Of a stretch of 64,000 nucleotides of DNA, positions 25,848 to 57,447 are shown piece after piece. The position numbers and the translations under genes are program-made. The stretch is from the IMG/VR virus record IMGVR_UViG_3300043430_000167; one strand, given 5' to 3'. Under the pieces are notes generated by a model, which was not told the DNA's origin, ran no database searches, and worked only from the letters and a program-made list of their open reading frames with translations. Every line of letters starts with the position of its first letter. Position 1 is the first letter of the stretch. This stretch comes from an uncultured virus (IMG/VR IMGVR_UViG_3300043430_000167) (taxonomy: Duplodnaviria > Heunggongvirae > Uroviricota > Caudoviricetes).

Positions 25848-25867
25848 AAAGGGCTGAGGGGAGGGAC

Positions 25868-26125: not shown

Positions 26126-26466
26126 GGCTTGTCCTTAACTAGAACCTTGAAACCAAGGTAAGTCACTCTCGTAAGACTGTCGTACGAGAAAGGTTGGGAG
26201 CACGAATTAGCCTTCATCTTCAAATAGCAAAGATCCGCTTCGTCAAGCATTAACGCGTCAGGCTCACGCTGCATATGTTGAACCCCTAGACTCAAAACCT
26301 TCATCATGTCGTAGTACGGGTCATCCGCTGGCGAGAAGGTTCCCGCATGCAATATCTGGATCTTTTTACCGTCCGTTTTACAAACTGTGTAAGCCGTCTG
26401 CTCGTAACCCGGTCTCCCCAGGTCAATACCCAGCATGTACTCAGGTAAGTTGTCACTCGTATTCAT
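26122..26466 (-). CDS. Hypothetical protein
   Basis: Visibly AT-richer ORF flanked by a 14-bp direct repeat. Confidence 0.5.
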   Translation of the reverse strand: MNTSDNLPEYMLGIDLGRPGYEQTAYTVCKTDGKKIQILHAGTFSPADDPYYDMMKVLSLGVQHMQREPDALMLDEADLCYLKMKANSCSQPFSYDSLTRVTYLGFKVLVKDKP

Positions 26467-26665
26467 AGTCTTCACCTCTGTTGTCTTTGAGGATGTCGCC
26501 CTCGGCTACGTCGACAACCACGAGAACGTCGTCAGCCAGGTTCGTCACTTCGAAGATCGTTGCTATGCTGTCAGGTCTGCGCATGTCGTCGAGTGCTGTG
26601 GCTGCGGCCTCTTCGTGTGACGGAGCGTCGATGTGCGCAGACCATACTGTCAGGAACGTGGGCAT
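26453..26665 (-). CDS. Hypothetical protein
   Basis: 70 aa; coupled to the ligase stop. Confidence 0.5.
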   Translation of the reverse strand: MPTFLTVWSAHIDAPSHEEAAATALDDMRRPDSIATIFEVTNLADDVLVVVDVAEGDILKDNRGEDYEYE

Positions 26666-27531
26666 TACAGATCCCTCTCATCCCTGAATGACAAAAACAC
26701 AGGGTGTCTCGGTTTGTCCTTCACGCCCACTGGGAAGTATTTGAACTTCAGCAGCTTGCCGATGTACTTCTCGCGGTTGTCCCACACGCGCTGACGAAGC
26801 TCGTCATCCATGCCTGTGCCGATCTCAAACTCGATGCCTTTCCACAGCACTTGGAACGCGCCCAGCGTGTTCTTGCCCGTCTTGTTCTCTTTGTGTGAGC
26901 TGCGCTTGGTACGACCCAGCTCGTTGGTCGTGGCTTCGTTGCCATTGTGCATTTGCTCAACCAGCCCGACGATGTGAGCTTCATCATCCTGAAATCTTTT
27001 TAGCTTCAGCAAGATCCCTTCCTTGGCAGTGCTGCGCCCGAACTTGTAGCCTGCATCCGGGTCACGCAGAATCAGCCCTTCGTAGCCTTCGTTGAGGCAC
27101 TTCTCTTCCAGAGCCAGCAGCTCTTCAACAGAGTTCACCAGGGTCTGGGGCACTTCAACGACGCGACTGCGAAGGTTGAACTTGCCCGGCTTGAAGCGGT
27201 GGTAATAGCGCTCGTGAGGTACTTCAATGTGGTCAAACACATGGAAGTGCACGTCGGGCTCACCGTCGACAGACATCACGCCGCTGGTGGTCACGTTGAA
27301 GCAGTTCTTCGCTGTCGGCTCACCGACGATCAGCTCACCGTCGAAGTGCTCGTATGCTGAGAACAGCTTCTGCACGTGCTTGTTCGGGATAGGTTTGAGG
27401 CTCCGGCTCATGAGCACGCCGTTGATTACTACTGCACGAATGCCGTCGAGCTTGGGGCTGGCCAGCAAGGGGAAGCGCAGATTGTTGAGGTCTGCGGGTG
27501 AAGCTAACATGGGTTTGAATGCTAAAGTCAT
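26665..27531 (-). CDS. ATP-dependent DNA ligase
   Basis: Motif I 'SPKLDGIR', 'FDGEL', 'YEGLILR', 'LLKLKRF', OB-fold 'PRHPVF'. Confidence 0.9.
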   Translation of the reverse strand: MTLAFKPMLASPADLNNLRFPLLASPKLDGIRAVVINGVLMSRSLKPIPNKHVQKLFSAYEHFDGELIVGEPTAKNCFNVTTSGVMSVDGEPDVHFHVFDHIEVPHERYYHRFKPGKFNLRSRVVEVPQTLVNSVEELLALEEKCLNEGYEGLILRDPDAGYKFGRSTAKEGILLKLKRFQDDEAHIVGLVEQMHNGNEATTNELGRTKRSSHKENKTGKNTLGAFQVLWKGIEFEIGTGMDDELRQRVWDNREKYIGKLLKFKYFPVGVKDKPRHPVFLSFRDERDL

Positions 27532-27866
27532 GAGTGGTACTCGATTTCTGCGCCTGGAGCGCGTTGAATCATTCCGATGGTGATACCGCCGCCCGTTTCC
27601 CACTCATAGCGCAAGATCCACTCAAGCATGCCTGAGCTATCTCGCTCGGTACGTGGAAACACTTTGAGGTTCAGCACACGCTCTTCGTTGCAGTAGCGGC
27701 GCACGTGGTTGGCCACACCGTCGCGCATGATTTCTTCGTCGGTGCGTTTGTAACCAAGAGCTTGCTTGGCAAGATGGCGAGCGGTGGTGTAAAGGGTGTC
27801 GCCCACAGTTGCATCAAGCAGTTGCTCCAGTACGCGACGGTCAATGCTTACTTTTTCATTCGTCAT
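27528..27866 (-). CDS. Hypothetical protein
   Basis: Coupled ORF in early operon. Confidence 0.5.
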   Translation of the reverse strand: MTNEKVSIDRRVLEQLLDATVGDTLYTTARHLAKQALGYKRTDEEIMRDGVANHVRRYCNEERVLNLKVFPRTERDSSGMLEWILRYEWETGGGITIGMIQRAPGAEIEYHS

Positions 27867-28192
27867 TTCGTGTCCTTTGTCACCCAGAACACGTAGTCGC
27901 CGAACCGACCATAGAACTCGCCGGACTGAAGATTCACTTCTTCGGCGCCGTGGCAATACTCAGTGGCCAGCGCCTCTTGCTCTTCGGCGATGTCTTCACC
28001 ACTCACCTCTTTGTTGGCGGTGTAGTCGCCGCAGTCATCCTCGAACTGCTTCATCATGAAGATGATGTGGGCCTTAGCTTCATCGAAGCTCTCGCACTCA
28101 GCTGGTTCGTTGTCCGGCATGTACCCAGGCATGTTGTAGCCAGCGATCCACACTGTAGTGGGCTCACCTTCCTTATCCAGTTCATTCTTCAT
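27863..28192 (-). CDS. Acidic hypothetical protein
   Basis: 'AGYNMPGYMPDNEP'; coupled ORF. Confidence 0.5.
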   Translation of the reverse strand: MKNELDKEGEPTTVWIAGYNMPGYMPDNEPAECESFDEAKAHIIFMMKQFEDDCGDYTANKEVSGEDIAEEQEALATEYCHGAEEVNLQSGEFYGRFGDYVFWVTKDTK

Positions 28193-28890
28193 GCCGCTAT
28201 CTCCAATTTGAGTTGCTTCCACGCGTCCGTTTCGCGGCGTTTAGCTTTACGTGCCTGAACGATCAAGCTCGCCGCCCAGCTGCGCATCTGTTCGGTGATG
28301 TAGCTACCGCTGTTGCTCTCGAAGCCCCAGCATGAGTCTTCACCCAGTTCTTCTCCGTTCTCGTCATGCAGCGTGACGATCAGGCCAACGTACCACCAGT
28401 TGTCATTGCACCAGTCGCGCAGGAACTCATAGGTGTTGCGCATGGCACGCATAGCCTGCTCGTGCTTCGTCCCGGTCTTGTACGGTGGGGCGTCCCAGCC
28501 TTCTTTGATGGCGATGGGCAAGGTTGCCTTCCAGTCGTAATAGCGATGGCTGAAGTGCTCACCACACAGCTCCCAACCGTACTGCTCTTCGTCTAACGAA
28601 CCGTGAATCCAGTCAGTCACTTCACCCACACCGTCGCAGTCTTCCCAAGGCGGCTCGTGGTGGCTGTCATACTGAATCTTGAAATTGATTTTCCAGCCGC
28701 GAGGTAGCTCGTGTTCTTCCTCACCCTCATAGGCTTCACCGTGATTGAGCGGGGTGATGTTCTGCTTGAATGAACCTTCGCCGTACTTCGCTTCGAACTT
28801 TGCTGAACGCATAGCTTGAATGGCGGGGTTGTTTTCAGCACGTTCCTTTTTATAGAAACGGAGCACGCGTTGCTTGTAGGTTTCCTTCAT
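28189..28890 (-). CDS. Hypothetical protein
   Basis: Trp-rich ('DWCNDNWWYVG', 'DSCWGFES'); coupled ORF. Confidence 0.55.
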   Translation of the reverse strand: MKETYKQRVLRFYKKERAENNPAIQAMRSAKFEAKYGEGSFKQNITPLNHGEAYEGEEEHELPRGWKINFKIQYDSHHEPPWEDCDGVGEVTDWIHGSLDEEQYGWELCGEHFSHRYYDWKATLPIAIKEGWDAPPYKTGTKHEQAMRAMRNTYEFLRDWCNDNWWYVGLIVTLHDENGEELGEDSCWGFESNSGSYITEQMRSWAASLIVQARKAKRRETDAWKQLKLEIAA

Positions 28891-29240
28891 CACTCTTCTC
28901 CCAGCACAGCGAAGCGAAACCGATACCCAGCCAGATGTGTGCCGCATGCGTCACACGTCTCTCGTGAGAATTCATGCTCTCCTGTGTCGCGGTCGACGAG
29001 CCCGTCTTTGTGGCACTGCGGGCAGATGTCTGTCGGCTGTTTGTGGCCAATCCATCCGCACAGCTTGCACTCGACCTGATCCTCACTGAAGAAGTCAGGT
29101 ACGAGGCCTGAGCCCAGGTCGTGAACTCCTTCAACGACCATCCTGTCATGTGCGTCGTCGCTGTCTGGCGGCAGGTCGTCGTTCACTGCGAAGATCATGC
29201 AGTCTTGGCATAACCAGAGGTCACTACGGACGATTTTCAT
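28890..29240 (-). CDS. Cys-rich (zinc-binding) hypothetical protein
   Basis: Four CxxC pairs. Confidence 0.5.
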   Translation of the reverse strand: MKIVRSDLWLCQDCMIFAVNDDLPPDSDDAHDRMVVEGVHDLGSGLVPDFFSEDQVECKLCGWIGHKQPTDICPQCHKDGLVDRDTGEHEFSRETCDACGTHLAGYRFRFAVLGEE

Positions 29241-29613
29241 GGTTCTTCCTATGTGTCAACAGTTCAGATAGGGAAAGGCCGAGCGGGTGCTTACGCCTGT
29301 ATTGAGCCCGCCTTAGAAGTACCTCGCGCTCAGCGACTTCAGGCCTTTGTCTCCTTCGCCGCTGCTTCTCATTTGGCGAAGGGGGTTTCGGGTAAGGCTT
29401 GTCCTTGCCCTTACCGTTGGCGTAAACAGGTGAATAGGGGCCGGGTTTTTCTGCAGTTCGCCAACCCACGATATGCACTTCGCCTTCCGCATGTAGCTTG
29501 GTGAGTAACCTCTGTAGCGTGCGCTGGTGGCAATGCAGGACGGGCCAGTCACGTGCGCTCACAAGTTGATTCTTCAAACGCTCACGAAGCCTCGGCCCCA
29601 CGGCGCTCTTCAT
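29224..29613 (-). CDS. Putative DNA-binding protein
   Basis: Basic; HTH-like 'RTLQRLLTKLHAEGEVHIVGW'. Confidence 0.4.
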   Translation of the reverse strand: MKSAVGPRLRERLKNQLVSARDWPVLHCHQRTLQRLLTKLHAEGEVHIVGWRTAEKPGPYSPVYANGKGKDKPYPKPPSPNEKQRRRRQRPEVAEREVLLRRAQYRRKHPLGLSLSELLTHRKNHENRP

Positions 29614-30491
29614 GCAGCCTCCTTGTGCAGCAGCCCAAGCTGCTCAGCGATGAGTTCAAGTTCAGTGAAAGGAATCGTGTGGCATCCAACGACGAGCGTG
29701 CCGTCCGGGTGAATCATGGTCAGGCGGTAGTCGCCAACCTGTCTCTCCGCGTTGCTAGGGGTATATTCAATGCTATGGGTCTTGCAACGAGTGGCAGCTC
29801 GCCAAAGCCACGGAGCGACTTCGACAGGCACTGTTGCACCGCGCGAGGTCTCGATGAGGGTCTTGTCCTTGCTCAGCCGCAGAGCTGTCACTTCGAAGTG
29901 CGGGTAACGTCGCTCGACGTTGTGGCGCCAGTCGACGAGGGCTTCCGCTTGTTCTTTGGCACGCGCTTCTGCTCGCTCTTTTTCTTGGCGTTGGATTACC
30001 TTCGCCCACTCCCGCATTCGCAGAGCTTCGACCTCAAGCTGTTTGTCCAGCTCGTCCATCGACGGGCGAGTCCAACCAAGACCGAAGAACGCTGAATACG
30101 CGTCACGTGCGGCGAGGTTTGATTCGATGTCGCTCAACCGCGAACGCAACCGCTTGTTGGCGAGGTACTCCTTGCGAAGGCACTCAACATTCTTCATCCA
30201 CCCCCGGTCGTTCGCCATGTGCACGAAGTCCAGGTTCTGACCTTCGTGTTGAGGCAGCACGGCGCAGAAAACGCGTTGCATGTGGTGGACAGCTGAGCGG
30301 GCGCGCCTCTGGTGGGTGGACGTGGTGTTGCTGAACCTGCGCTCACTCAACATGACGCGGTTGTCGCCAAGCAGGAAGCCAATGGGCTCCGCGTAGCTGA
30401 ACATCACCGGACCTTCGAAGCGGACGTTACCGCTCTTGGCTCGCGGGCGAGACTGCGCCGCCCAGAGGTGAAACACTTCACGTGAGTTCAT
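29610..30491 (-). CDS. Hypothetical protein
   Basis: 'VFHLWA', 'FSNTTSTHQ', 'IETSRGATVP', 'VGCHTIP'. Confidence 0.55.
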   Translation of the reverse strand: MNSREVFHLWAAQSRPRAKSGNVRFEGPVMFSYAEPIGFLLGDNRVMLSERRFSNTTSTHQRRARSAVHHMQRVFCAVLPQHEGQNLDFVHMANDRGWMKNVECLRKEYLANKRLRSRLSDIESNLAARDAYSAFFGLGWTRPSMDELDKQLEVEALRMREWAKVIQRQEKERAEARAKEQAEALVDWRHNVERRYPHFEVTALRLSKDKTLIETSRGATVPVEVAPWLWRAATRCKTHSIEYTPSNAERQVGDYRLTMIHPDGTLVVGCHTIPFTELELIAEQLGLLHKEAA

Positions 30492-30852
30492 GATAAACCT
30501 CTCCGTCATAGCCAAGTTTGTTGCGCTCCCACAGGAGCTTGAGCAGCGCCTCTGCGTCTGCGCGCTTGCGCTTGATGGACTTCTCGATGACCTCAATGGG
30601 CGCCGGCAGCAGCTTCATGATGTCAGCCGCGGTGTCAGTGCCGATGCGCGTGCAGGAGATGCCGGGTGGGACTACTTTCTTGCGGGCTGTATCAAGGCCG
30701 GGCACAACAATGTCCTCTTCGAACACGTCCGCCGCTGCCGCGGGCTTTTGAGCTGGAAACGCGGTCTCTACGACCTTCTTCCCGAACAACTCTGACAGAA
30801 ACTCCTTGGCTTCGTCAGAAAGTGTCAGAGTGTGAGTTATGCGAATATCCAT
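30478..30852 (-). CDS. Hypothetical protein
   Basis: 124 aa; TCTGAC motif cluster inside its 5' end. Confidence 0.5.
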   Translation of the reverse strand: MDIRITHTLTLSDEAKEFLSELFGKKVVETAFPAQKPAAAADVFEEDIVVPGLDTARKKVVPPGISCTRIGTDTAADIMKLLPAPIEVIEKSIKRKRADAEALLKLLWERNKLGYDGEVYHELT

Positions 30853-30858
30853 GATGGT

Positions 30859-31137
30859 TTAATACTCCGAAGGAAGAAGGATTGTGGTTGCGCTGCGGTC
30901 GGCTTCGGTGATGATCCAAATCTTCACATCAGGTGCGATCTGGTATGCGGAGAAGATGCGGTTGCCGAGCTTAACGGCTTCGTCATTGAGTGCTTTGTCT
31001 TCTTCGCACAGCGTTCCCCAGTCGCCGTTGTAGTGGCGAGTGAGAAGACCTAGCGGCGTGAGTTCGTGAGCGGCAATTACTTCAAGCGCTCCGGGCGTGG
31101 CCACGACCTGGCCGAGTTGGAATAGTGGATGGATCAT
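30859..31137 (-). CDS. Conserved mobile-element protein
   Basis: 'LGQVVATPGAL...RHYNGDWG...IWIITEADRSATTILLPSEY', a pattern recalled from plasmids and phages. Confidence 0.65.
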   Translation of the reverse strand: MIHPLFQLGQVVATPGALEVIAAHELTPLGLLTRHYNGDWGTLCEEDKALNDEAVKLGNRIFSAYQIAPDVKIWIITEADRSATTILLPSEY

Positions 31138-31439
31138 GTCAGTCCTCCTGCCTGCAGCCACATGTCGATTGCGGTCTGCGCTTCGTTCATGAAAGCGGTG
31201 CCCTTGCTGGTGAACAGGGTCTCCGCATCATCGTCGTCTTCCGGCCCGCCAAGGAGCTGGTCAAGTACGTCTGGCCAGCACTCTTCACAGAACCCACCAA
31301 GCTCGTTGGCGTCGATGTAGTCGTGGAGTTGGCTGAAGCGTCTGCCAGTTTTCGGGATGCGTCCGGTGGCCGCCTCTTCGCAGATCTCGCACTTCATTCG
31401 CTCGATGGTCAGCGCCATTGCGAGTTCTGGTGTCATCAT
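31134..31439 (-). CDS. Hypothetical protein
   Basis: 'FSQLHDYIDANELGG'; start approximate. Confidence 0.5.
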   Translation of the reverse strand: MMTPELAMALTIERMKCEICEEAATGRIPKTGRRFSQLHDYIDANELGGFCEECWPDVLDQLLGGPEDDDDAETLFTSKGTAFMNEAQTAIDMWLQAGGLT

Positions 31440-31858
31440 GATTCCAGCCACTTCTCTTGCGCCCAAGTCAGCGCGTTCATTACTGCGGTCTGCTCTCCGT
31501 CAGTGCGCTTGTACTCGCTACGCATGAAGAACTCCCACACCCTGACATACAGGTCTGCTGCCGCTACGTGCTTGTTGATCCTTGGTGCCCCACGCTCTCC
31601 GGCAGGGTCTTGCGCTTCAATGTGCTTGCGCAGCCACTCCCCGAACGGTTCCGACACCTCGTAGTCATAGACGCCCTCGAAGTAGATGTCCGCAGCGCCG
31701 AACACCGCCTCCAGATACAGCTCTGAAAGTTCAGCGAACTCCGCGACGGCGCGGCACAATTCGATACAGCCTTGATCCCAGTGCTCAAGCAGCTTGTCGT
31801 CTTCCTTCACGCCTTCCCACATGAATGCGGCGGTGATGGCGATGTTGATGTGGTTCAT
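31436..31858 (-). CDS. Hypothetical protein
   Basis: 'GVYDYEVSEPFGEW'; GGAG RBS. Confidence 0.5.
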   Translation of the reverse strand: MNHINIAITAAFMWEGVKEDDKLLEHWDQGCIELCRAVAEFAELSELYLEAVFGAADIYFEGVYDYEVSEPFGEWLRKHIEAQDPAGERGAPRINKHVAAADLYVRVWEFFMRSEYKRTDGEQTAVMNALTWAQEKWLES

Positions 31859-31863
31859 GTCAG

Positions 31864-32310
31864 TTACTCCATTTCTTCAAGTAGTTCTACGCCGGTCTCA
31901 TCGAACAACTGGGTCGACCGGATGATGTTCTCTCGCCAGCGCTCGGCGAATTCGGGGCTCATTCTGCCCACCACCACGCGCTTGATCCCTGACTGCACGA
32001 TGGCTCGTGCGCAGTCCATACAGGGGAAGTGGGTGACGACCAGGGTGCCGCCCTTGGGGCTGAAGCCTGAGCGCGCTGCGGTGTAGATGGCGTTACGCTC
32101 TGCATGTTCTGCCCAGAAGAGCTTCTCCGGGCGAGATTGGAAGCGTTCATCTTCGTCAGCACTGCAGCCACGCGGCGCGCCGTTGTACCCCCATGGCCCA
32201 CCCTCTCCATCCGGGCCGATGATGATCGCGCCTACCTTGGTGTCGTCCTTGGACAGCTGGGCCACGGCGCGGGCGATGGCCATGAGTCTGGATATCTTGG
32301 CGGGGGTCAT
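31864..32310 (-). CDS. dCMP deaminase
   Basis: 'GYNG', 'HAE', 'PCMDC' zinc-deaminase motifs. Confidence 0.9.
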   Translation of the reverse strand: MTPAKISRLMAIARAVAQLSKDDTKVGAIIIGPDGEGGPWGYNGAPRGCSADEDERFQSRPEKLFWAEHAERNAIYTAARSGFSPKGGTLVVTHFPCMDCARAIVQSGIKRVVVGRMSPEFAERWRENIIRSTQLFDETGVELLEEME

Positions 32311-32311
32311 T

Positions 32312-33031
32312 TCAGCTCCTCACCAAGAAGGTGTTTCCGTCGACTTCGATCTCGGTGTAGTCAGACTTCAACTCATCGGCAGCCGCTTCCCAGTCGATGT
32401 GGTTTGTGGGCCACTCGGCATCACGTAGGATTGCACCGATATCGCTCGCATACTCTTGACAGTAATCCACAAACTTGCCCTCGTTGATGAGTTGACAGTC
32501 GCGGAACCTACCGCCGCAGTAGCTCTCAGCCTGCTCCTTCAGATCCAGCCAGTTGGCAAGCTCTTCGTACTCGTCAGCGTTCGGGTCGTTCGGGTCGAAC
32601 TCAATGGCATAGTCGACGCTGAACTCATCGCAGAACGCACGCGCTTCGTCCTCTCCGTCAAGAAGCGCGCAGATCTTGCCGCGAATCTTGCAGAGAGCTT
32701 CTTCGAGATCAGAGTCTGTAAGAGTGTCGAGCGTGTCTTCGAGGTCCAGCTCGCTCAACACTTCGCTCCAGTAGCCGAGGTTGTCGGCCATCGTTTCGAG
32801 CGTGTCGAGGTCGTCGGTGTCGGTGATCTCATCCTTGGCCGCTTCAACTGCAGACTTGTCGCCTTCACCCAGGGTGATCTCACCGTTGAGCCACTTGCGC
32901 AGCTCGCTGGAATCCACGTTGTCGAGGAAGTCGTGACCCGTCAGCAGGTAGCTGATATGGGCGTCGATGTCACGACCGGAGAGGTAGTCGTCATAGAGGT
33001 TGATGGTTTTAAGCATCTCGGTCGTCCTCAT
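32312..33031 (-). CDS. ArdA-like antirestriction (DNA-mimic) protein
   Basis: Very Asp/Glu-rich; C-terminal 'HIDWEAAADELKSDY' resembles the ArdA C-terminus. Confidence 0.5.
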   Translation of the reverse strand: MRTTEMLKTINLYDDYLSGRDIDAHISYLLTGHDFLDNVDSSELRKWLNGEITLGEGDKSAVEAAKDEITDTDDLDTLETMADNLGYWSEVLSELDLEDTLDTLTDSDLEEALCKIRGKICALLDGEDEARAFCDEFSVDYAIEFDPNDPNADEYEELANWLDLKEQAESYCGGRFRDCQLINEGKFVDYCQEYASDIGAILRDAEWPTNHIDWEAAADELKSDYTEIEVDGNTFLVRS

Positions 33032-33563
33032 GCTGCGTTATCCACTGGAGAACCTCGTCTTTGTTCGGGTGGTCTCCTTCGAGCGAGTTATTGATGGTGT
33101 CTGCAAACTCACATAGCAGGGCGTATGCACCTTCGTTGGCAGCGCGCAGCCTCTCTATCTCGTCGAGCATGGCTGGGAACTCGTTGTGTGCGAGGCTCTG
33201 GAAGTCTTCTTGGGCTGTAGTGGCGCGGGCCTCTTCAAGCACCGAGTCGGCGTAAGACTGTGCATCCTCGCGTGTCGGGTAGAACAGGTCGGCAGACCCG
33301 CGACACTTCTGACCTCGGCTGACGAAGTCGATGCTTTCTCCGGAGCATCCAGGAGATATACCAAAACGAGTGATTTTGATTTCACTGATGGTTGCTTTGT
33401 ATGGCCTGTCTCGCTGTGCGTTGTAGTGCAGATCCACTTCATACACAACGACGGGAAGCACTTGATCGCGCAGATCTTCGTTGGAAAGCTCGCGGAAAGC
33501 TCGCGGTTTTTTCTCTGTCGTTGCAGCGTGCGCCGCACGCAGTTTGTCGATGTCGATTGTCAT
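33009..33563 (-). CDS. Ead/Ea22-like hypothetical protein
   Basis: 'IDIDKLRAAHAATT' ... 'PAMLDEIERLRA' flanks. Confidence 0.4.
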   Translation of the reverse strand: MTIDIDKLRAAHAATTEKKPRAFRELSNEDLRDQVLPVVVYEVDLHYNAQRDRPYKATISEIKITRFGISPGCSGESIDFVSRGQKCRGSADLFYPTREDAQSYADSVLEEARATTAQEDFQSLAHNEFPAMLDEIERLRAANEGAYALLCEFADTINNSLEGDHPNKDEVLQWITQHEDDRDA

Positions 33564-33769
33564 TTCAGTAGCTCCACAGTCTTGCGAACAGGGGCTAGGT
33601 ACGCTTCGTCTGACGTGAGCAATTCCATTGCGTCTTTGACGCCGCACACGTAGGACACCAACCTGTCTATTTCCATATGGGAGATTAGGGAGCGTATGCG
33701 GAACTTAAGCAACTCGCAGTCGTCCGGGAGGGTGTCTATCGTCGCAATGAGGTCTTCGAGTTTGGTCAT
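33560..33769 (-). CDS. Hypothetical protein
   Basis: Coupled small ORF. Confidence 0.45.
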   Translation of the reverse strand: MTKLEDLIATIDTLPDDCELLKFRIRSLISHMEIDRLVSYVCGVKDAMELLTSDEAYLAPVRKTVELLK

Positions 33770-33770
33770 T

Positions 33771-34142
33771 TCAGTCTTCCTCTTCAACTTGCGCAGCCTT
33801 CCGGGTCATTTCTATGACCCGCTGTGCGACAACGTCGGTATGGGCGGCCTGCTTAGCTGCGGCCCTGATCACACCTTCAAAAGCGCCTCGGTATTGAGAC
33901 GCCAAAGCGACGGCAATATCCTTCTCAATCGCCATCAAGAAATTTGGAGAGACGCACGCCTTGGCGATAGCATGAACCATCGCAACGGTGATCTGCTCCT
34001 GCGATTCTGCGATTGCTTTCTCCATCGCCGCTTTCAGCTTCGCCCCCGTCCCGTAACTGTCGCGCATCATTGAATTGATGGCGTTCTGAACACCTTCTTT
34101 TAGCCAGCGTTCGATTGTTTCGTCTTTGATTTCGATTGCCAT
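33771..34142 (-). CDS. Hypothetical helical protein
   Basis: 123 aa; AGGAG RBS. Confidence 0.5.
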   Translation of the reverse strand: MAIEIKDETIERWLKEGVQNAINSMMRDSYGTGAKLKAAMEKAIAESQEQITVAMVHAIAKACVSPNFLMAIEKDIAVALASQYRGAFEGVIRAAAKQAAHTDVVAQRVIEMTRKAAQVEEED

Positions 34143-35035: not shown

Positions 35036-35238
35036 TCGTCGTTCCCCTCAGGTTCGCCGTGATCCTCGGGGCGGCAGACTGCGCTGACGGTGTACGCGCC
35101 GTCCCCGCTCAGGACGCGGTCTTCGAGATTCGGGCTGACCTCAAGCCACCTGAAGTAGCCCTGGCACGTATCCAGGGCGATGTCCAGAATGTCGCCGAAG
35201 AAGTCTTCGGTCATGTTGAATTTCAGGGTGATTGTCAT
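35032..35238 (-). CDS. Hypothetical protein
   Basis: Coupled ORF, 68 aa. Confidence 0.4.
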   Translation of the reverse strand: MTITLKFNMTEDFFGDILDIALDTCQGYFRWLEVSPNLEDRVLSGDGAYTVSAVCRPEDHGEPEGNDE

Positions 35239-36215
35239 TTTCTCTTCTTTCCAGGCTCGACCAGGTCCGTCTTACGAGCCCTGATATAAGCCTCGGTCAT
35301 AGTGATACTCTTGTGGCCGAGAAGTTTCTGTGCGGAAGCCGCGTCGTCCATGTCCGTGGCAACCATGCCGCGAAGGTCATGCTCCGTGAACCGGTCGTTT
35401 CCAGCTGATACGAACGTCGCCATCAGTCGCCTCCAGATCGAGCCGAAACCCTGTGACGTGTACTGAGTGCCCGAGCGAGTTGGAAATAGCAGCGGCGATG
35501 ATTTCGGCAAGCGACTTAAAATCTCCTGCAGTTCTGGAGTCAGCCGGATGCGGATCCGCTTTCCGGTAGAGTTCTTGGTTTTTTGAGGACATAGGTGTAT
35601 TCCTTGGTTGTCAATATCAACCCACTTGAGCGCGAGCATGTCTTGCTGGCGGGCACCAATCAGTGCTTTGAGATCCAGATAGGTCTGGAGCCACGCGGGG
35701 CACAGGCTCTTGAACGTCGCCAGTTCTGTCGAGGTGACGTACCGAGTACGGGGCCTCTCTCGCGCACGAAGCCCTGGAACTGCGCAAGGGTTATCCGTGC
35801 GTAAGCCCCACCTGATTGCGTAATTGAAGATGTGGGAAAGGAGCGCAATCTCACGGTTGCCTCTTGTCTTCGCTTCGCGGGCATCACGATACGCAGCGAC
35901 GTGTACTGCGGTGACCTGTGTGACGTGCATCTCTCCAAACGCCGTGCGAAGAAAGCGTAGTTCTTGGCGATTGTCCTTCTGCGTGCGCTCGGCTTTTCCC
36001 GGCACAACTTCGAGAAGGTATCGGTCAAAAAGCTCAGCCATGATCTCAGTTTGTGTCGGTGCGATGACAAGAGTCGACCATTTCGCCATTGCTTTGGCAT
36101 AGTCACTGTCTAGCCTTTCCCATTTACCAGTTGCTTTGTGAACGAAGTAGTACGCCCCGTTGCGGTGATATACCCGCTCAGGTAAGTCTTTTCGTTTTGT
36201 TCTTGCGCGTCCCAT
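35235..36215 (-). CDS. int: Tyrosine integrase
   Basis: Catalytic R (GARQQD), K (QKT), HxxR (HDLR), H (LLGH), Y (TEAY); N-terminal arm-binding-like region. Confidence 0.92.
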   Translation of the reverse strand: MGRARTKRKDLPERVYHRNGAYYFVHKATGKWERLDSDYAKAMAKWSTLVIAPTQTEIMAELFDRYLLEVVPGKAERTQKDNRQELRFLRTAFGEMHVTQVTAVHVAAYRDAREAKTRGNREIALLSHIFNYAIRWGLRTDNPCAVPGLRARERPRTRYVTSTELATFKSLCPAWLQTYLDLKALIGARQQDMLALKWVDIDNQGIHLCPQKTKNSTGKRIRIRLTPELQEILSRLPKSSPLLFPTRSGTQYTSQGFGSIWRRLMATFVSAGNDRFTEHDLRGMVATDMDDAASAQKLLGHKSITMTEAYIRARKTDLVEPGKKRK

Positions 36216-47974: not shown

Positions 47975-48673
47975 TCAGACTCCTGATTTGCAGTGGCCCG
48001 TGCCGCCTGGTCCGTACGGACACCAGCGACAGCTGTGCTCATTTGGGTTTGGTTTGAAGTCCGTCGCGGATGTCATGCGAAGACCTCGTCTGTCGAAGTT
48101 CTTAAGGTATCTGAGGCCTTGTTCACGAGAGAGTGTCAGAGTCGTGATGTCGTCTGCGTCGAGATACCAGAGTTCTGCCGTCACCTTGGTGATCTTGTCG
48201 TTACGCAAGAGCATGGCCAGTGCATAGAGCTGCAGCTGTTCGGCGTGCTTGAGTTCGTTGCCGAACTTCTTGCCTGTTTTGTAATCAATCACCACAGCGT
48301 GTGTTGGGCTCAGCATGACGGATGCGTCCAGCTTCATACGAAGCCATCCCGTCTTCCAGTCGTGTGGGGTCCACAGATTGTTGAACGCCCAGTCTTCTTC
48401 CAATGTGGCTTGCTTGGCGAGGAACTTCTCGCGCAGGCTCTTGTATTCATCAGCGAACTTGTTCAGTTCTTTCGGCAAGGTCTTGATCTTGCCGCGGACA
48501 AAGTCTTCAGCCAGTTGGTGTATGGCTGTTCCACGTTCTGCGGCTGGACTGGGTCTTGGATCAGGGATGCGTTCCCCGTACTTGAGCCAGGCTTTGAAAC
48601 GACAGCTTTCAAAGTCAATGAGGCGCGAGTAGGACCAGGACTTGATTGTTTGATTTGGGCGGGGCGCGTTCAT
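47975..48673 (-). CDS. Cas4/RecB-like PD-(D/E)xK exonuclease
   Basis: 'WSYSRL...C', 'RGTAIH', 'IDYKTGK', 'QLQLYA', 'CRWCPY......C'. Confidence 0.85.
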   Translation of the reverse strand: MNAPRPNQTIKSWSYSRLIDFESCRFKAWLKYGERIPDPRPSPAAERGTAIHQLAEDFVRGKIKTLPKELNKFADEYKSLREKFLAKQATLEEDWAFNNLWTPHDWKTGWLRMKLDASVMLSPTHAVVIDYKTGKKFGNELKHAEQLQLYALAMLLRNDKITKVTAELWYLDADDITTLTLSREQGLRYLKNFDRRGLRMTSATDFKPNPNEHSCRWCPYGPGGTGHCKSGV

Positions 48674-49173
48674 TTTAAGAGACCTTTCGATGCTTTTCGT
48701 TTTTGATAACTGACTGCTTCTCGTTTACGCCGCTGTTCTCTTGCTTCACGACTTTCGTTTTTTACCCGTTTTGAGTCGCATGCTTTGCAGATCGTGGATT
48801 TTCCGGTTGTTCGTCTGTTGTCAGAAACGAAGTCATTGAGTGTTTTTTGTTGTTTGCACACATAGCATCTACAAACCCCGTTATTGGCTAAGCGTTTGTC
48901 TTTTGCGATGTTTTCTGTTAGAGGTATAACTTGCATATTTAAAAGATCGTAGTGGCCGTTGTTATCTATTCGATCAATAGAACATCTCTCGAAATCTCTC
49001 GCCATGAACCATTTAACAAAATCTTCTTTTGATACCAACACTTGAACGCCTTTATAGGATGCGTTCTTCGACGTACGGGTGTTTTTCACTCGGTGGCACA
49101 TCATGTAATAACGTGCCAGCGCTCGATGTCTTCCGCCGATAATCTTGTGCCGATTGTCATTTTTGCTCGGCAT
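48670..49173 (-). CDS. HNH-type homing endonuclease-like protein
   Basis: 'SIDRIDNNGHY..N' plus C-terminal CxxC pairs; AT-rich. Confidence 0.65.
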   Translation of the reverse strand: MPSKNDNRHKIIGGRHRALARYYMMCHRVKNTRTSKNASYKGVQVLVSKEDFVKWFMARDFERCSIDRIDNNGHYDLLNMQVIPLTENIAKDKRLANNGVCRCYVCKQQKTLNDFVSDNRRTTGKSTICKACDSKRVKNESREAREQRRKREAVSYQKRKASKGLLK

Positions 49174-49175
49174 GT

Positions 49176-49616
49176 TTAACGGCCTGTATGGCCGAAGCCG
49201 CCAGCGCCACGTTCAGTTGAACTGAGTTCGTCGACTACTTCAAAGACCGCCTGTTGGATGGGCAGGATCATGGCTTGGGCGATGCGGTCGCCGTGTTTGA
49301 TGTGAAGGCCGCAATCAGGTGTGTCTACTGTGAGTTTCACTTTCACTTCACCGCGGTAATCGCTGTCAATCACACCAACGCAGTTGGCCAGACGCACACC
49401 GTAGTTGAACCCGTGGCCACTGCGGCTAAAGACCAGCATGACGTGATCTTGAGGAACTTCGAACGCCAGGCCTGTGGCGATAACATCAGGCGCGTATTGA
49501 CCCACATGGTATGTTGCACTCAATGAGAGGGCATGTAGGTCAAAGCACGCTGCACCGGGTGTTGCATAGGTAGGAATGATTGCTTCGGGGTGCAGCTTCT
49601 TGATTTTGACTTGCAT
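49176..49616 (-). CDS. dut: dUTPase (trimeric)
   Basis: 'ACFDL', 'SRSG', 'GVIDSDYRGE', 'RIAQ', 'RGAGGFGHTG'. Confidence 0.95.
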   Translation of the reverse strand: MQVKIKKLHPEAIIPTYATPGAACFDLHALSLSATYHVGQYAPDVIATGLAFEVPQDHVMLVFSRSGHGFNYGVRLANCVGVIDSDYRGEVKVKLTVDTPDCGLHIKHGDRIAQAMILPIQQAVFEVVDELSSTERGAGGFGHTGR

Positions 49617-49629
49617 GACTTTGTCCTCG

Positions 49630-50340
49630 TTAAAGTTGAAGTGAGTGGGCGACTAGGAACCCCTGATCCGACACAACTGTCCTTGCTTTCATCGGCACCT
49701 TTATCCGAATGCACGGAGGTACAAGGTAAGGCGATTCAGTGTGCTTAACCCACAAAGCAGCGCCCTTCTCCGGCCGGAACGGCTACCGTGCAAGTCTGTT
49801 TGGTCTCTTGCGGATTCCAAGGCCAGTATGCAACTCGCCAAAAGGGTGCTGCTTTGTAGGTGCTGGTTTCTTTCCCACCAGCAAAGTCATGTGGGTGACC
49901 TATTCATCATCGAGGTGCTTCCTCAGATTGGCATAATTGTCGATTAGCTCAGTCTCGCAGGCATGCCCTGCGAAACATAGTTACAGCGTCCTGTAACGAT
50001 CCTCTTTTACCCACAAGTCAAGCGCACTGGTCGCTACTCCAGTTGTCGGCATTCCGACGCACGCCTGCGTCTTCTGCGCTTGCTTGTAGGTGCTGGTTTC
50101 TTTCCCACCAGCAAAGTCACCGATTCATGAGACTTGCGCTTTCGGTTAGCGAGTACGCCCGCTCATGTGGGGGCAGGTTTCTTCCCAGCCTGCAAAGCCA
50201 TGTGGGCACATCTAATTAGATGGATCTAGCCCTACCCACAGAACTGCATCCGAATGCCGCAAGTCGACATTATTGGCACTCAGTTGCAGTTCTGTAGGTG
50301 CTGGGGAGACGGCCAGCACCGTTGTTGGTATTTGATCTAC
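49630..50340 (-). ncRNA. Array of repeated structured RNA modules, family unknown
   Basis: 36-nt repeat at 49854-49889 and 50084-50119 (identical), 50165-50200 (compensatory variant), 50292-50320 (partial); long closing stems; no credible ORF. Confidence 0.65.
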
Positions 50341-50362
50341 ATAGCTAGCCCCCTCCGTGTTG

Positions 50363-50890
50363 TTAAGTCAGAGAATCGAAAAGTTCGAAGAGGTGCAGAA
50401 CCTGGTCTTTAGCATCGTCGAGCGCGTTGTGGTGTGTGCCACTCCGCGTCATCTTGATGCTTGGGTTCATGTTCTTGAGTGTGCGATAGCAGCGGTTGTT
50501 GTAGAACATCCACGGCTGTTCGATACCGCAATTGCGTAACGCGCTGCCCAGGATCACGTTGTCGAAGTCAGCCCCGTTACCCCATACAACCATGTCCTTC
50601 TTGACTGCGCAGCCGAGAGCGAAGTGCATGAACGCGATGAGTGCGTCCGGCATGGTCTCGCCTTTACGTTGGAACGCAGCCCGTGCCTCGTCGCTCTGCT
50701 GCATCCACCAGAGTACCGTGCTCGGGTCCATAGCTCCGCCGTATTCAACAGCGGATGCAAGGTCGATGACTTTGTAGAACTCCTTGCCGAGTTTCATCTT
50801 GACCGGGTCGAATTCCACAGCGCCGATGGCGATGATGGCTGCATTGGGTGTGTTACCCATGGTCTCCAGGTCGATCATGAGGTTCTTCAT
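50363..50890 (-). CDS. DEDDh 3'-5' exonuclease (DUF5051/RNase AS-like)
   Basis: 'MIDLETMG', 'WGNGADFD', 'HNALDDA'. Confidence 0.85.
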   Translation of the reverse strand: MKNLMIDLETMGNTPNAAIIAIGAVEFDPVKMKLGKEFYKVIDLASAVEYGGAMDPSTVLWWMQQSDEARAAFQRKGETMPDALIAFMHFALGCAVKKDMVVWGNGADFDNVILGSALRNCGIEQPWMFYNNRCYRTLKNMNPSIKMTRSGTHHNALDDAKDQVLHLFELFDSLT

Positions 50891-51039
50891 TTCTTTTCCC
50901 TTTTAGCGAGTTTGCGCATATGCCCGTCATGACAGACGAGGTATTCCGTGTCGTCGATGATGCGGATCTTCACGATGGTCAGACCGAAGTCTGTTGCCCA
51001 TTTGCGCATGAGATGCGCCTTGAGTTTGGTCAGCATGGT

Positions 51040-56874: not shown

Positions 56875-57447
56875 ATGAAGAAATGCACGCGGTGCGGGGT
56901 TGAAAAGACGAGTGATTGCTTCAGTGTGAGGCGGGCGTCAAAGGACGGGCTTAACGCCGCGTGCAAAGACTGCCGATGCGCAACGGATAAAGCTAAGTAC
57001 GCTGAAGACGTTTCATTCAGAGACAAAGCTAAGCAGCGCTCTCGGGACAGGGCAAAGACTGATGAAGGTAAAGAGTCGTCAAAAAGGTGGTACGCAACTC
57101 ATTCCTCTTCGCACAAGAAGCGCGTGTATTTGGCGCAAAGAACGCGTAAAGACAATGACCCTGCATGGAGAAACGCTGACAACGTATGGCGCGCCATGCG
57201 GGCAGTGGGTCGTGTACCTGGGTGGGCAAATAAGTCCGACACAATGCCTTTCTATGATCTGGTGGCGATCTTAGGGCCGGGTTGGGTGGTTGATCACATT
57301 GTCCCCATTAACGGTGAAACAGTTTGTGGGTTACATGTTCGTCAAAACCTGCAGGTGGTGAGCGCTCATACCAATTCCACAAAAGGGAACCGCTTCAACG
57401 GTGAGCTTGAAATCATGGGTGTTACTGAACCGAAAGTGCGTAGGTGA
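56875..57447 (+). CDS. HNH endonuclease
   Basis: N-terminal CxxC pairs; 'VDHIVPING..VCGLHV..NLQV....N..KGN'. Confidence 0.8.
   Translation: MKKCTRCGVEKTSDCFSVRRASKDGLNAACKDCRCATDKAKYAEDVSFRDKAKQRSRDRAKTDEGKESSKRWYATHSSSHKKRVYLAQRTRKDNDPAWRNADNVWRAMRAVGRVPGWANKSDTMPFYDLVAILGPGWVVDHIVPINGETVCGLHVRQNLQVVSAHTNSTKGNRFNGELEIMGVTEPKVRR

What the first reader, a model, noticed from the sequence alone, without database searches (positions are those of the whole stretch)
49630..50340. Non-coding array of 36-nt hairpin repeats, each next to a different long-stemmed RNA domain
Seen in sequence: the ~740 bp between the DEDDh exonuclease and dUTPase has no credible ORF. On the minus (co-transcribed) strand, UGACUUUGCUGGUGGGAAAGAAACCAGCACCUACAA occurs twice identically (+ coords 50084-50119, 49854-49889). 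A third 36-nt copy (50165-50200) has a compensatory stem change (GCUGG/CCAGC to GCAGG/CCUGC). A fourth, partial copy (50292-50320) keeps the stem with a new loop. In three units the 3' ACCUACA opens a 15-22 bp stem closed by UGUGGGU around an unrelated insert: one long hairpin (50234-50299), a three-hairpin cloverleaf (50009-50091) and a larger domain (49748-49861). Linkers carry further hairpins (GUUACAG/CUGUAAC, UCGCAGG/CCUGCGA). CCCACAUG boxes offer an alternative partner for UGUGGG. The conserved U-G pair favours the minus strand, although one pair in the 49748 stem fits the plus strand better. Inference: a constant handle plus variable payload design, i.e. a polycistronic small-RNA cassette processed into several RNAs. 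These could be decoys for host defence or RNA-binding proteins, guides, or antitermination/processing signals. I cannot match it to a named family.
Basis: partly seen in the sequence, partly recalled or inferred. Interest (0 to 1): 0.85.

Follow-up and report, generated by a model that had tools for sequence, protein, structure and literature searches.

The report
New phage RNA hairpin, tRNA/tmRNA-linked
The gap between two phage genes holds three copies of a small RNA hairpin with an unchanging loop, which also turns up in many unrelated phages beside their tRNA genes or inside their tmRNA genes, so it looks like an undescribed building block of phage non-coding RNAs whose job is still unknown.

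Summary
Window 49617-50362 (746 nt, minus strand, between an Rv2179c-like exonuclease and dUTPase) has no credible ORF. It carries two identical 36-mers, a third diverged copy with a compensatory stem change, and long stems enclosing unrelated inserts.

New here: the hairpin belongs to a wider family. It has CUUU, usually GACUUUG, on its 5' side, then a 5-bp stem and an 11-nt loop ending GGAAAGAAA, often followed by ACC. I found 37 further distinct copies in otherwise unrelated phage and prophage sequences (33-60% GC, no shared protein). The stem covaries strongly. The loop looks constant, but every search pattern fixed most of it.

The hairpin sits:
- inside bona fide phage tmRNAs at the PK4 position (4 loci, a fifth by eye);
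- 4-11 nt before tRNAs (4 loci);
- directly before long stems (about 10 copies);
- in other intergenic sites.

Other phage genomes have one copy; this phage has three. Rfam 15 has no match, and the window has no tRNA, tmRNA or tag ORF.

Best reading (confidence about 0.4): a co-transcribed precursor of tRNA/tmRNA-related structured small RNAs, in which the hairpin is a handle read by conserved host tRNA/tmRNA machinery. Transcription, processing and the partner are not shown.

The parts
50363..50890 (-). Upstream gene: Rv2179c-like DEDDh 3'-5' exonuclease (boundary of the non-coding array).
   Evidence: Pfam PF16473, E 8.4e-55. PHROG 255 exonuclease. 78 loci holding homologues of this gene have no copy of the hairpin.
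50292..50320 (-). Degenerate hairpin ('copy d'): GCUGG/CCAGC stem and ACCUACAG tail, but another loop and no CUUU.
   Evidence: Sequence. Folds as a hairpin. Not found by covariance model R1.
50234..50299 (-). Long hairpin A1: 25-nt arms, opening with ACCUACAG and closing with CUGUGGGU.
   Evidence: Inverted repeat I1. Fold z -6.3.
50163..50207 (-). Hairpin copy c (diverged): GGCUUUG, stem GCAGG/CCUGC, loop CUGGGAAGAAA, tail CCCCACAUG. No long stem follows.
   Evidence: R1 38.2 bits, E 5e-5. 75% identical to the reference copy.
50082..50126 (-). Hairpin copy a: UGACUUUG, stem GCUGG/CCAGC (50108-50112 with 50092-50096), loop UGGGAAAGAAA, tail ACCUACAA.
   Evidence: Exact 36-mer at 50084-50119. 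R1 58.4 bits.
50009..50091 (-). Domain A2: a 16-bp stem with one bulged A, enclosing three small hairpins. It starts at the ACC tail of copy a.
   Evidence: Fold, z -5.1.
49891..50015 (-). Linker domain B2. It can close on itself (GUGGGU with ACCCAC) around hairpins GUUACAG/CUGUAAC (49980-49997), UCGCAGG/CCUGCGA (49955-49973) and GAGG/CCUC. This closure competes with the A2 stem for the UGUGGGU strand.
   Evidence: Fold in isolation -44.3 kcal/mol, z -3.65. A 49-nt piece (49969-50017) occurs with other flanks in an RNA run.
49852..49896 (-). Hairpin copy b, identical to copy a over 36 nt, preceded by ACCCACA.
   Evidence: Exact 36-mer at 49854-49889. R1 56.6 bits.
49748..49861 (-). Domain A3: a 20-bp stem (one mismatch) enclosing about 74 nt.
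   Evidence: Inverted repeat I2. 21 pairs in my scan. Fold z -4.2.
49617..49747 (-). 3' tail of the non-coding region, up to the dUTPase ribosome-binding site and start codon.
   Evidence: Sequence. No ORF of note.
49176..49616 (-). Downstream gene: dUTPase (boundary).
   Evidence: Pfam PF00692, E 1.7e-23.
49644..50008 (.). Segment that a related genome in DNA run X6 replaces with 40 other bases (linker B2, copy b, domain A3 and most of the tail).
   Evidence: Joint 49643/50009 with 40 letters between, depth 50.

Best explanation
The gap is a non-coding stretch transcribed with its neighbouring genes. It holds three copies (plus one decayed look-alike) of an RNA hairpin I found in no Rfam family and no searched paper, and so far almost only in phage and prophage sequences. 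The hairpin has CUUU (usually GACUUUG) on its 5' side, a 5-bp stem of free sequence, an 11-nt loop ending in GGAAAGAAA, and often ACC on its 3' side.

In other phages the same hairpin is a part of tRNA-type RNA genes. It fills the PK4 slot of phage tmRNAs, sits a few bases before phage tRNAs, or abuts a long helix that begins with its own ACC tail. I therefore read the window's array as a precursor of several structured small RNAs that derive from, or are built like, phage tRNA/tmRNA cassettes.

The hairpin would be a constant handle read by a host component that is the same in many bacteria. My best guess is the tRNA/tmRNA maturation machinery. Outside tmRNAs the hairpin commonly shows U(-1), G(+1) paired with C, then A-C-C, which from memory is the signature of an RNase P cleavage site. 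The long stems would act as processing stalks, or as clamps that hide the ACC tail and the UGUGGGU strand.

Shown: the structure, its conservation, its contexts, the copy number, and the indel of a unit. Inferred: transcription, cleavage, the partner, and any benefit to the phage.
For: 1. The hairpin is real.
- On 40 copies, 94% of stem cells pair, 4 of 5 pairs change on both sides, and there are 29 compensatory cells. None of 500 shuffles reach the covariation score, and slid controls collapse.
- The 40 copies were chosen for 3 or more pairs. The unbiased test is the scan with GACTTTNNNNNNNGGAAAGAAAC, which does not constrain four of the five pairs. Of its 78 hits, 21 have 5 of 5 pairs and 17 have 4 of 5. 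My own calculation for random sequence expects about 0.6 and 4.8.

2. RNA strand.
- G-U or U-G pairs occur in 4 cells.
- Neighbouring tRNA or tmRNA genes lie on the hairpin's strand in all 16 loci that have one.

3. tRNA/tmRNA link.
- The hairpin lies inside tmRNAs called by Rfam RF00023 at 83-156 bits in L099, L102, L109 and L171 (ARAGORN calls three of them).
- tRNAs start 4, 7 and 11 nt after it in L108, L021 and L121.
- A tRNA or tmRNA lies within 700 nt in 8 of 19 paired hits, against 0 of 25 pattern hits without a proper stem.
- In the cultured Gordonia phage Orchid the order is gene 99, hairpin, tRNA-Leu, tmRNA.

4. No phage partner.
- No protein family is shared by the 10 hairpin-bearing contigs compared.
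- Their GC ranges from 39.5% to 60%.
- The motif was almost absent from bacterial genomes: 2 true hits, in L034 and L039, the second identical to a contig that IMG/VR classes as a provirus, in one scan of 185,579 species. In 401 sampled genomes only the prophage host and one unpaired hit matched.

5. RNase P-like signature.
- The stem's base pair is closed in 32 of 35 non-tmRNA copies, and NCC follows in 17 of 35. The figures are 1 of 5 and 0 of 5 for copies inside tmRNAs, where a cut would break the tmRNA.
- In L108 the hairpin is followed by exactly ACCA and then tRNA-Phe.

6. Long helices start directly at the ACC tail in L003, L004, L007, L011, L044, L061 and window copy b, with 16-21 ungapped pairs. 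The 99th percentile of 740 control positions is 14.

7. Modularity. A relative lacks 49644-50008. Other genomes have one copy each.
Against: - No direct evidence of transcription or of discrete RNA ends. The RNA-library contigs laid on the region cannot show expression.
- The unchanging loop GGAAAGAAA is not explained by an RNase P site.
- Loop constancy is partly built into my search patterns.
- Half of the non-tmRNA copies lack NCC. The tmRNA versus non-tmRNA contrast rests on only 5 tmRNA copies, which are partly related to each other.
- In the window the ACC tail is paired (ACC with GGU) in the favoured fold, which would hinder recognition of a free ACC.
- The hairpin's place within non-coding regions varies: at the start, in the middle, or just before an ORF or a terminator. 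One fixed role in processing is therefore not obvious.
- A small, fast-evolving phage protein partner would escape my blastp comparison.
Confidence: 0.4

Rival explanations
1. A tmRNA-derived decoy. The hairpin plus long helix copies the PK4/helix-2 corner of phage tmRNAs. Three copies in a row would soak up a host factor that meets that part of tmRNA (ribosome, S1, an RNase), tuning trans-translation during infection.
For: The hairpin occupies the PK4 slot, directly 5' of the helix-2 3' strand, in four Rfam-confirmed phage tmRNAs. The strands that follow it here (ACCUACAAG and ACUUGUGGGUAA) resemble the helix-2 strands of L099 (AUACAAGUAG and AAACUUGUGAAUAA) by eye. A phage tmRNA cut down to its tRNA-like domain is on record as a likely inhibitor of tmRNA (passages of PMC4131195 and PMC11915505).
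Against: Host genomes, tmRNA genes included, did not show the motif in the 401 sampled or in the species-wide scan, so it does not mimic host tmRNA by sequence. The order of the parts differs: in tmRNA the hairpin precedes the 3' strand of a helix whose partner lies upstream, while here the partner lies downstream. The window has no tRNA-like domain and no tag frame.
Confidence: 0.15
2. A cis-acting transcription element. The single-stranded CUUUG block plus a purine-loop hairpin would act like a nut site (boxA plus boxB) or a put-type RNA. It would keep RNA polymerase from terminating in long untranslated, highly structured stretches.
For: The element lies on the gene strand, is single copy in four complete genomes, and is associated with long untranslated structured stretches. 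Its layout of a U-rich block followed by a hairpin with a purine loop recalls lambda nut (recalled, not tested). A host partner would explain conservation across hosts.
Against: It often lies at the 3' end of the untranslated stretch, just before an ORF, or even before a terminator (L005, L015, L049), or inside a tmRNA. Those are poor places to load an antitermination complex. The block lacks the A-A that follows UUU in boxA (recalled). The model finds nothing in the 24-34 kb stretch of HK022, taken (from memory) as its early region.
Confidence: 0.12
3. Decaying remnants or by-products of tRNA/tmRNA gene turnover, duplicated here by recombination, with no function of their own.
For: The copies neighbour tRNA and tmRNA genes. 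A variant loop, AGUUCAAAG(A/C)AAA, looks like a T-loop. The hairpin plus ACCNACA resembles a T-arm plus a 3' acceptor strand (by eye). Copy d has decayed. Units are gained or lost between relatives.
Against: About 30 nt are kept nearly unchanged in phages that share no other DNA or protein similarity, while the stem changes by compensating pairs. That is the mark of selection on a structure, not of decay.
Confidence: 0.1
4. A DNA-level element: a small mobile element (MITE-like, with ACCYACA...TGTGGGT ends), a recombination hotspot, or origin iterons in the replication module.
For: Patchy spread among unrelated phages. Inverted-repeat ends. An indel of a whole unit and several break points among relatives in run X6. 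The array sits among replication genes.
Against: U-G pairing in ACCUACA/UGUGGGU and G-U pairs in the hairpin fit only one strand. Copies always run with the genes and tRNAs. One copy per genome elsewhere. No target-site duplications seen. No shared replication or transposition protein. A position inside functional-looking tmRNAs.
Confidence: 0.08
5. A mimic of a defence RNA: CRISPR-repeat-like RNA (RNA anti-CRISPR) or a type III antitoxin-like repeat array.
For: A 36-nt repeat with a hairpin and an 8-nt tail, present in several copies in a phage non-coding region.
Against: The spacing is 81 and 230 nt, neither tandem nor regular. No bacterial array carries this repeat in the scan of 185,579 species. 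There is no toxin gene beside it. The 11-nt loop is large for a Cas6-type repeat (recalled).
Confidence: 0.03

Closest known systems
Phage-encoded tmRNA (Rfam RF00023), region between PK3 and the helix-2 3' strand (PK4 slot)
   Same: The same hairpin (GACUUUG, 5-bp stem, NNGGAAAGAAA loop) sits in this slot in L099, L102, L109 and L171. In both settings it directly abuts a strand of a long helix.
   Different: The window has no tRNA-like domain, no CCA end and no tag reading frame. The helix partner lies downstream, not upstream. The tmRNA-embedded copies lack the ACC tail, and 4 of 5 lack the closing base pair.
5' leaders of phage tRNA genes and tRNA arrays
   Same: The hairpin lies 4-11 nt before tRNA-Phe, tRNA-Gln (twice) and a tRNA-Leu-like gene, and inside tRNA arrays (L003, L007, L061).
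   Different: The window has no tRNA at all. The hairpins are followed by long stems with unrelated inserts.
Stable small RNAs of the phage T4 tRNA cluster (species 1 and 2 RNAs); recalled from memory, not checked here
   Same: Structured, non-tRNA RNAs encoded among phage tRNA genes and thought to be matured by the tRNA processing enzymes; function long unknown.
   Different: No sequence comparison was made here. T4-type phages were not among the carriers found.
Bacterial and phage Y-RNA-like RNAs (YrlA, RF02553)
   Same: A long stem formed by distant strands plus a tRNA-like module. Found in phages (abstract of PMC4201824 in the listing).
   Different: No YrlA match in the window. I did not look for a Ro/Rsr gene.
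Lambda nut (boxA plus boxB) and HK022 put antitermination RNAs
   Same: A short single-stranded block followed by a small hairpin with a purine-rich loop, on the transcribed strand (layout recalled from memory).
   Different: No match of the model in HK022. The placement is often wrong for loading onto polymerase. No N-like protein is known.

Membership tests
tmRNA (RF00023 / permuted RF04321) | tRNA-like domain: acceptor stem, T-arm and 3' CCA | tested here: not met
   ARAGORN finds no tmRNA or tRNA in the 64-kb window. Rfam gives no hit at E up to 10 in 49000-51000 and none at gathering score in the whole window.
tmRNA (RF00023 / permuted RF04321) | Tag-peptide reading frame ending in a hydrophobic ...AA stop | tested here: not met
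   Three-frame translation of 49617-50362 (minus strand) shows no such short frame.
tmRNA (RF00023 / permuted RF04321) | Hairpin of the PK4 slot as seen in phage tmRNAs | tested here: met
   The same motif occurs at that slot in L099, L102, L109 and L171. Three window copies score 38-58 bits with model R1.
tRNA (RF00005) | Cloverleaf recognised by ARAGORN or the Rfam model | tested here: not met
   none in the window.
Any Rfam 15 family (4227 models) | Covariance-model match | tested here: not met
   In the window, only two chance-level hits at E 0.59 and 8.5, neither on the hairpin copies. In 26 related loci, the hairpins are covered only where they lie inside a tmRNA match; no other family covers them.
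CRISPR repeat / RNA anti-CRISPR (solitary repeat units) | Repeat identical or near-identical to the repeat of a host CRISPR array; regular spacing in arrays | tested here: not met
   Spacing is 81 and 230 nt. The scan of 185,579 species' genomes gives only two true hits, L034 and L039, each a single copy; L039 matches a provirus contig. That pattern fixed the G-C ends of the stem.
Type III toxin-antitoxin RNA (ToxI-like) | Head-to-tail tandem repeats next to an endoribonuclease toxin gene | tested here: not met
   The copies are not tandem. The neighbours are an exonuclease, dUTPase, an HNH endonuclease and a PD-(D/E)XK nuclease. The Tandem Repeats Finder tool was not run.
HK022 put RNA | Sequence and structure likeness to putL/putR | tested here: not met
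   R1 finds nothing below E 2.9 in HK022 24000-34000. The put coordinates themselves were not looked up.
Lambda-type nut site | boxA consensus followed by a boxB hairpin bound by an N protein | not testable with these tools
   The consensus is recalled from memory. No N-like protein could be sought, because such proteins are short and diverge fast.
RNase P substrate (model hairpin with 3' RCCA) | U(-1), G(+1)-C pair, A discriminator and CC after the helix | tested here: inconclusive
   All four features are present in window copies a and b and in 17 of 35 non-tmRNA copies, and absent from the 5 tmRNA-embedded copies. The rule is recalled. Cleavage is untested, and the ACC is paired in the favoured fold.

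The most novel reading that the evidence does not exclude
The hairpin is a phage-only 'tag' that phages of very different hosts attach to their tRNA-type RNAs: tmRNAs, tRNA precursors and tRNA-like modules. Its unchanging purine loop would dock onto a universal host machine such as RNase P, the ribosome or a tRNA-directed nuclease. The window's triple array with variable inserts would be a new class of modular tRNA-mimic RNA, made to capture or divert that machine, for instance as a decoy against tRNA-targeting defence.
Probability: 0.15. Interest if true: 0.85.

Novelty: new variant of a known kind. Interest (0 to 1): 0.68.

Why it matters
Phage tRNA regions are known to hold structured RNAs of unknown function, and phage tmRNAs have no explained role. 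This work adds a short hairpin with a covarying stem and a loop that stayed constant wherever my searches could see it, shared by phages of different hosts that have no protein in common. It ties together three settings: the inside of tmRNAs, tRNA leaders, and long-stem RNAs.

If a host partner exists, the hairpin would show how phages address their own tRNA-type RNAs to host machinery, or protect them from it. A cultured carrier (Gordonia phage Orchid) and a bacterial strain whose genome holds a copy matching a provirus contig (Paludibacterium denitrificans) make this testable. The family also deserves a covariance model in RNA databases, because it is currently invisible to annotation.

Tried and rejected
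- Pseudoknot between the 5' CUUU and the loop's AAAG. It looked attractive, since both were constant and the slot is tmRNA's PK4. I rejected it on geometry (my reasoning, no tool): there is no linker between CUUU and the stem, and only three A's would have to span both helices.
- A partner in cis for the loop. Six-mers complementary to the loop occur near the motif no more often than chance (the expectation is my own estimate).
- A conserved peptide (frame DFAGGKETS). The flanks are unrelated, and stem changes alter the peptide while keeping the pairs.
- A riboswitch for a common downstream gene. The downstream ORFs are unrelated by eye.
- A shared phage protein. None in an all-against-all blastp of 10 contigs; an integrase family occurs in 5 of 10.
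- attP or a copy of a host gene. The scan of bacterial genomes found no host gene with the motif. In the provirus contig the hairpin is internal.
- A link to the neighbouring exonuclease. 0 of 78 loci with homologues carry the hairpin.
- Escherichia phage D6. The blastn hit is a different hairpin inside a coding region.
- The GenBank phage collection. No match to the whole gap or to a phage tmRNA carrying the motif. Only the Gordonia Orchid group matched the 56-mer.
- RNA evidence. Contigs from RNA or possibly-RNA runs cover 49768-49978 (X15) and 49969-50017 (X17, with other flanks). These cannot show transcription, ends or strand.
Four of the 7 hits with an 11-nt loop were the known motif.
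- One search was wasted on a pattern one base too long.
- Full-text search for the motif's letters found no relevant paper. Two concept searches found none describing it.
Full report
**What is in the window**

The stretch 49617-50362 lies between a gene for an Rv2179c-like DEDDh exonuclease (50363-50890) and a dUTPase gene (49176-49616), both on the minus strand. It is 746 nt long, and the ORFs overlapping it are 68 aa or less.

On the minus strand the 36-mer UGACUUUGCUGGUGGGAAAGAAACCAGCACCUACAA occurs exactly twice, at 50119-50084 and 49889-49854. None of 100 shuffles gave two matches. A third copy at 50200-50165 is 75% identical, with GCAGG/CCUGC replacing GCUGG/CCAGC. A fourth hairpin (50320-50292) keeps the stem and the ACCUACAG tail but has another loop.

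Directly after three of these hairpins a long helix begins with the hairpin's own ACC tail and closes with UGUGGGU. The helices span 50299-50234, 50091-50009 and 49861-49748. The units fold far better than shuffles (z -6.3, -5.1, -4.2). The whole gap folds at -299.6 kcal/mol on the minus strand (z -7.4) and -286.1 on the plus strand (z -5.9).

The window is a phage. It carries major head protein, terminase, DNA polymerase, primase-helicase, ligase and integrase genes, at 55.5% GC. It has no tRNA or tmRNA and no Rfam family at gathering score.

**The hairpin is a family**

An exact scan of IMG/VR for the 21-base core, and wider patterns in IMG/VR, a metagenome collection and 185,579 species' genomes, brought in the same hairpin from contigs that share nothing else with the window at the DNA level.

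The most neutral pattern, GACTTTNNNNNNNGGAAAGAAAC, leaves four of the five stem pairs free. Of its 78 hits, 21 have all five pairs and 17 have four. By my own calculation about 0.6 and 4.8 would be expected for random sequence.

The stems differ between copies:
- GCUGG/CCAGC
- GCCGG/CCGGU
- GCUAG/CUAGC
- GUCAG/CUGAC
- GGCCG/CGGCC
- GGCGG/CCGCC
- AUUGG/CCAAU
- GUUGG/CCAAC, and others.

I aligned 40 copies, 3 from the window and 37 distinct others chosen for at least 3 pairs. On this alignment:
- 94% of cells pair;
- four of five pairs show changes on both sides;
- 29 cells are compensatory;
- no shuffle of 500 reaches the covariation score;
- sliding the partner destroys the signal.

Four cells are G-U or U-G, which fits only the strand shown.

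A covariance model built from the alignment (R1) recovers exactly three copies in the window, at 58.4, 56.6 and 38.2 bits. It does not recover the fourth hairpin.

One caution applies. Every pattern fixed most of the loop, so the constancy of GGAAAGAAA is partly by design. It did show a second loop type, AGUUCAAAGAAA, which is also seen in an upstream copy in L108 and looks like a T-loop. The 5' CUUU was not fixed in the first scan and was still present in all 9 of its loci.

**Where the family lives**

In L099, L102, L109 and L171 the hairpin lies inside a tmRNA gene, with Rfam RF00023 scores of 83-156 bits against a gathering score of 47. ARAGORN calls three of the four, with tag peptides. 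The hairpin sits at the place of pseudoknot 4, directly before the 3' strand of helix 2. L124 has the same layout and a tag-like frame GNYSYAAAA by eye, but no program calls it.

In three loci a tRNA starts just after the hairpin:

| Locus | tRNA | Distance after the hairpin |
|---|---|---|
| L108 | tRNA-Phe | 4 nt (exactly ACCA) |
| L021 | tRNA-Gln | 7 nt |
| L121 | tRNA-Gln | 11 nt |

. In L022 a tRNA-Leu-like gene follows after 6 nt by my reading (Rfam tRNA 31.7 bits).

L003, L007 and L061 carry the hairpin within tRNA arrays. L011, L016, L051, L116, L154 and L159 have tRNAs nearby. In all 16 loci with a called tRNA or tmRNA, that gene is on the hairpin's strand.

As a control from the same scan with the same 700-nt flanks, 8 of 19 paired hits have a tRNA or tmRNA, against 0 of 25 pattern hits without a proper stem (L107 was in both lists).

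L116 is the cultured Gordonia phage Orchid. There the order is gene 99, then about 520 nt without annotation that holds the hairpin, then tRNA-Leu, then tmRNA.

Long helices starting at the hairpin's tail, as in the window, occur in L003, L004, L007, L011, L044 and L061 with 16-20 ungapped pairs. The 99th percentile of 740 control positions is 14. L016 and L034 have shorter versions. In other loci the hairpin is followed by a ribosome-binding site and an ORF (L049, L068), a terminator (L015) or a promoter-like site (L006).

**What the family is not tied to**

- Four complete phage genomes and the other records have one copy each. The window's phage is the only one with three.
- The ten contigs compared share no protein family. 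An integrase family occurs in 5 of 10. Their GC runs from 39.5% to 60%.
- Bacterial genomes almost never carry the motif. There were two true hits among 185,579 species, in L034 and L039; L039 is identical to a contig that IMG/VR classes as a provirus. In 401 sampled genomes only that MAG and one unpaired hit matched.
- None of 78 loci with homologues of the neighbouring exonuclease has it.
- Rfam matches the related loci only as tRNA, tmRNA and a near-threshold pistol hit.
- Full-text searches for the motif's letters and for the concept found no description. Supplements were not searched.

**Reading of the mechanism**

A hairpin whose stem is free to vary, but whose loop and 5' flank stay fixed in phages of many hosts with no common protein, most likely contacts something that is the same in all those hosts, or folds into a fixed shape. 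Its company (tmRNA, tRNA leaders, tRNA-like modules) points to tRNA/tmRNA metabolism.

Outside tmRNAs the closing pair is formed in 32 of 35 copies and NCC follows in 17 of 35. U precedes the stem in every copy and G begins it in most. From memory, this is the signature of a bacterial RNase P site. Inside tmRNAs, where a cut would break the molecule, the closing pair is formed in 1 of 5 copies and NCC follows in none. The L108 arrangement (hairpin, ACCA, tRNA) would leave a hairpin ending in ACCA after normal tRNA 5' processing.

I therefore favour a processed, multi-part precursor of structured small RNAs, with the hairpin as a handle for the maturation machinery and the long stems as stalks or clamps. 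My confidence is about 0.4.

Weak points:
- There is no evidence of expression.
- The loop is unexplained by this reading.
- Half of the copies lack NCC.
- The ACC is paired in the favoured fold.
- The tmRNA contrast rests on five copies that are partly related.

The linker after each long stem can also close on itself with the next ACCCACA box, so each UGUGGGU strand has two possible partners. In L003 and L016 such a second domain ends in an acceptor-like strand followed by ACCA or ACC (by eye), which again looks tRNA-like.

**Rivals**

- A tmRNA-derived decoy (0.15).
- A cis-acting antitermination element (0.12).
- Functionless remnants of tRNA/tmRNA turnover (0.10).
- A DNA-level mobile or origin element (0.08).
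- A CRISPR-repeat or antitoxin mimic (0.03).

The evidence for and against each is given in its own section. A DNA run holds a relative in which 49644-50008 is replaced by 40 other bases, with several other break points nearby. The units are therefore gained and lost as blocks, which all readings must accommodate.

**Comparison with the known, and novelty**

The array fails the defining tests for tmRNA, tRNA, Y-RNA-like RNA, CRISPR repeats and ToxI-type arrays, and matches no Rfam model.

Phage tmRNAs are known, and so is a phage tmRNA reduced to its tRNA-like domain that probably inhibits host tmRNA (passages of PMC4131195 and PMC11915505). The shared hairpin has not been described in anything I could search.

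I rate it a new variant within a known kind, namely structured RNAs of phage tRNA/tmRNA regions, rather than a wholly new system, because its function is unknown and part of the family sits inside a known RNA. Interest is 0.68.

Noticed in passing
L005 about 1255-1385, L011 about 1660-1785, L016 about 1600-1700 (oriented as): A second conserved structured block follows the long stem in three unrelated phages: GGUGAAUGCG.AGGCUGAUGCGCUGA ... AAGCCGGAGAUCAGCACCGGC, then an acceptor-like strand. Two hairpin loops are complementary to each other (GCUGAU with AUCAGC; GCUGA with UCAGU in L011). In L016 the block ends in AUCCACA-ACC just before tRNA-Met. It looks like a tRNA-shaped RNA and has no Rfam match.
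   Followed up: partly
L116 825-875 (minus strand) = Gordonia phage Orchid, about 100-150 nt upstream of the hairpin: A match to the pistol self-cleaving ribozyme just under threshold: 34.2 bits against a gathering score of 34.5, E 0.006.
   Followed up: no
L124 (and L163), region around the hairpin: A tmRNA-like gene with a tag frame GNYSYAAAA and the hairpin at the PK4 slot. Its 3' end lacks a normal T-arm and CCA, and neither ARAGORN nor Rfam calls it. It may be a degenerate or unusual phage tmRNA.
   Followed up: partly
L108, about 180 nt upstream of the main hairpin; L282: A variant of the hairpin with loop AGUUCAAAG(A/C)AAA, which contains a T-loop-like GUUCAAA. In L108 it is followed by a U run. 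This hints that the family descends from a tRNA T-arm.
   Followed up: partly
L022/L063, directly after the hairpin: A tRNA-Leu-like gene with an insert of about 60 nt after the anticodon region. Rfam scores it at 31.7 bits, but ARAGORN does not call it.
   Followed up: no
L007 1991-2063; L171 1031-1107 (minus strand): Possible suppressor tRNAs beside the motif-bearing loci: anticodon UUA (called 'tRNA-Stop') in the L007 array, and CUA (called tRNA-Pyl) next to the L171 tmRNA.
   Followed up: no
window 49969-50017: A 2013 RNA-seq run of a coded organism B holds these 49 bases exactly, but with different flanks and adapter sequence. It also holds a dUTPase contig with one difference in 241 bases. 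A close relative of this phage may live in that culture.
   Followed up: no
window 48670-49173 and 56875-57447: Two HNH / endonuclease VII-like genes, one directly downstream of dUTPase. These may be homing endonucleases in the replication module.
   Followed up: no
window 35235-36215: A tyrosine integrase gene (PHROG 1, E 3e-52), so the phage is probably temperate. The same integrase family is present in 5 of the 10 hairpin-bearing contigs compared.
   Followed up: no
L169, about 30-110 nt upstream of the hairpin: Two T-arm-like hairpins (GCAG-UUCGAUU-CUGC and CAGG-UUCAAUU-CCUG) without a called tRNA, and a weak Tymovirus tRNA-like hit downstream (29.5 bits against a gathering score of 40).
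   Followed up: no
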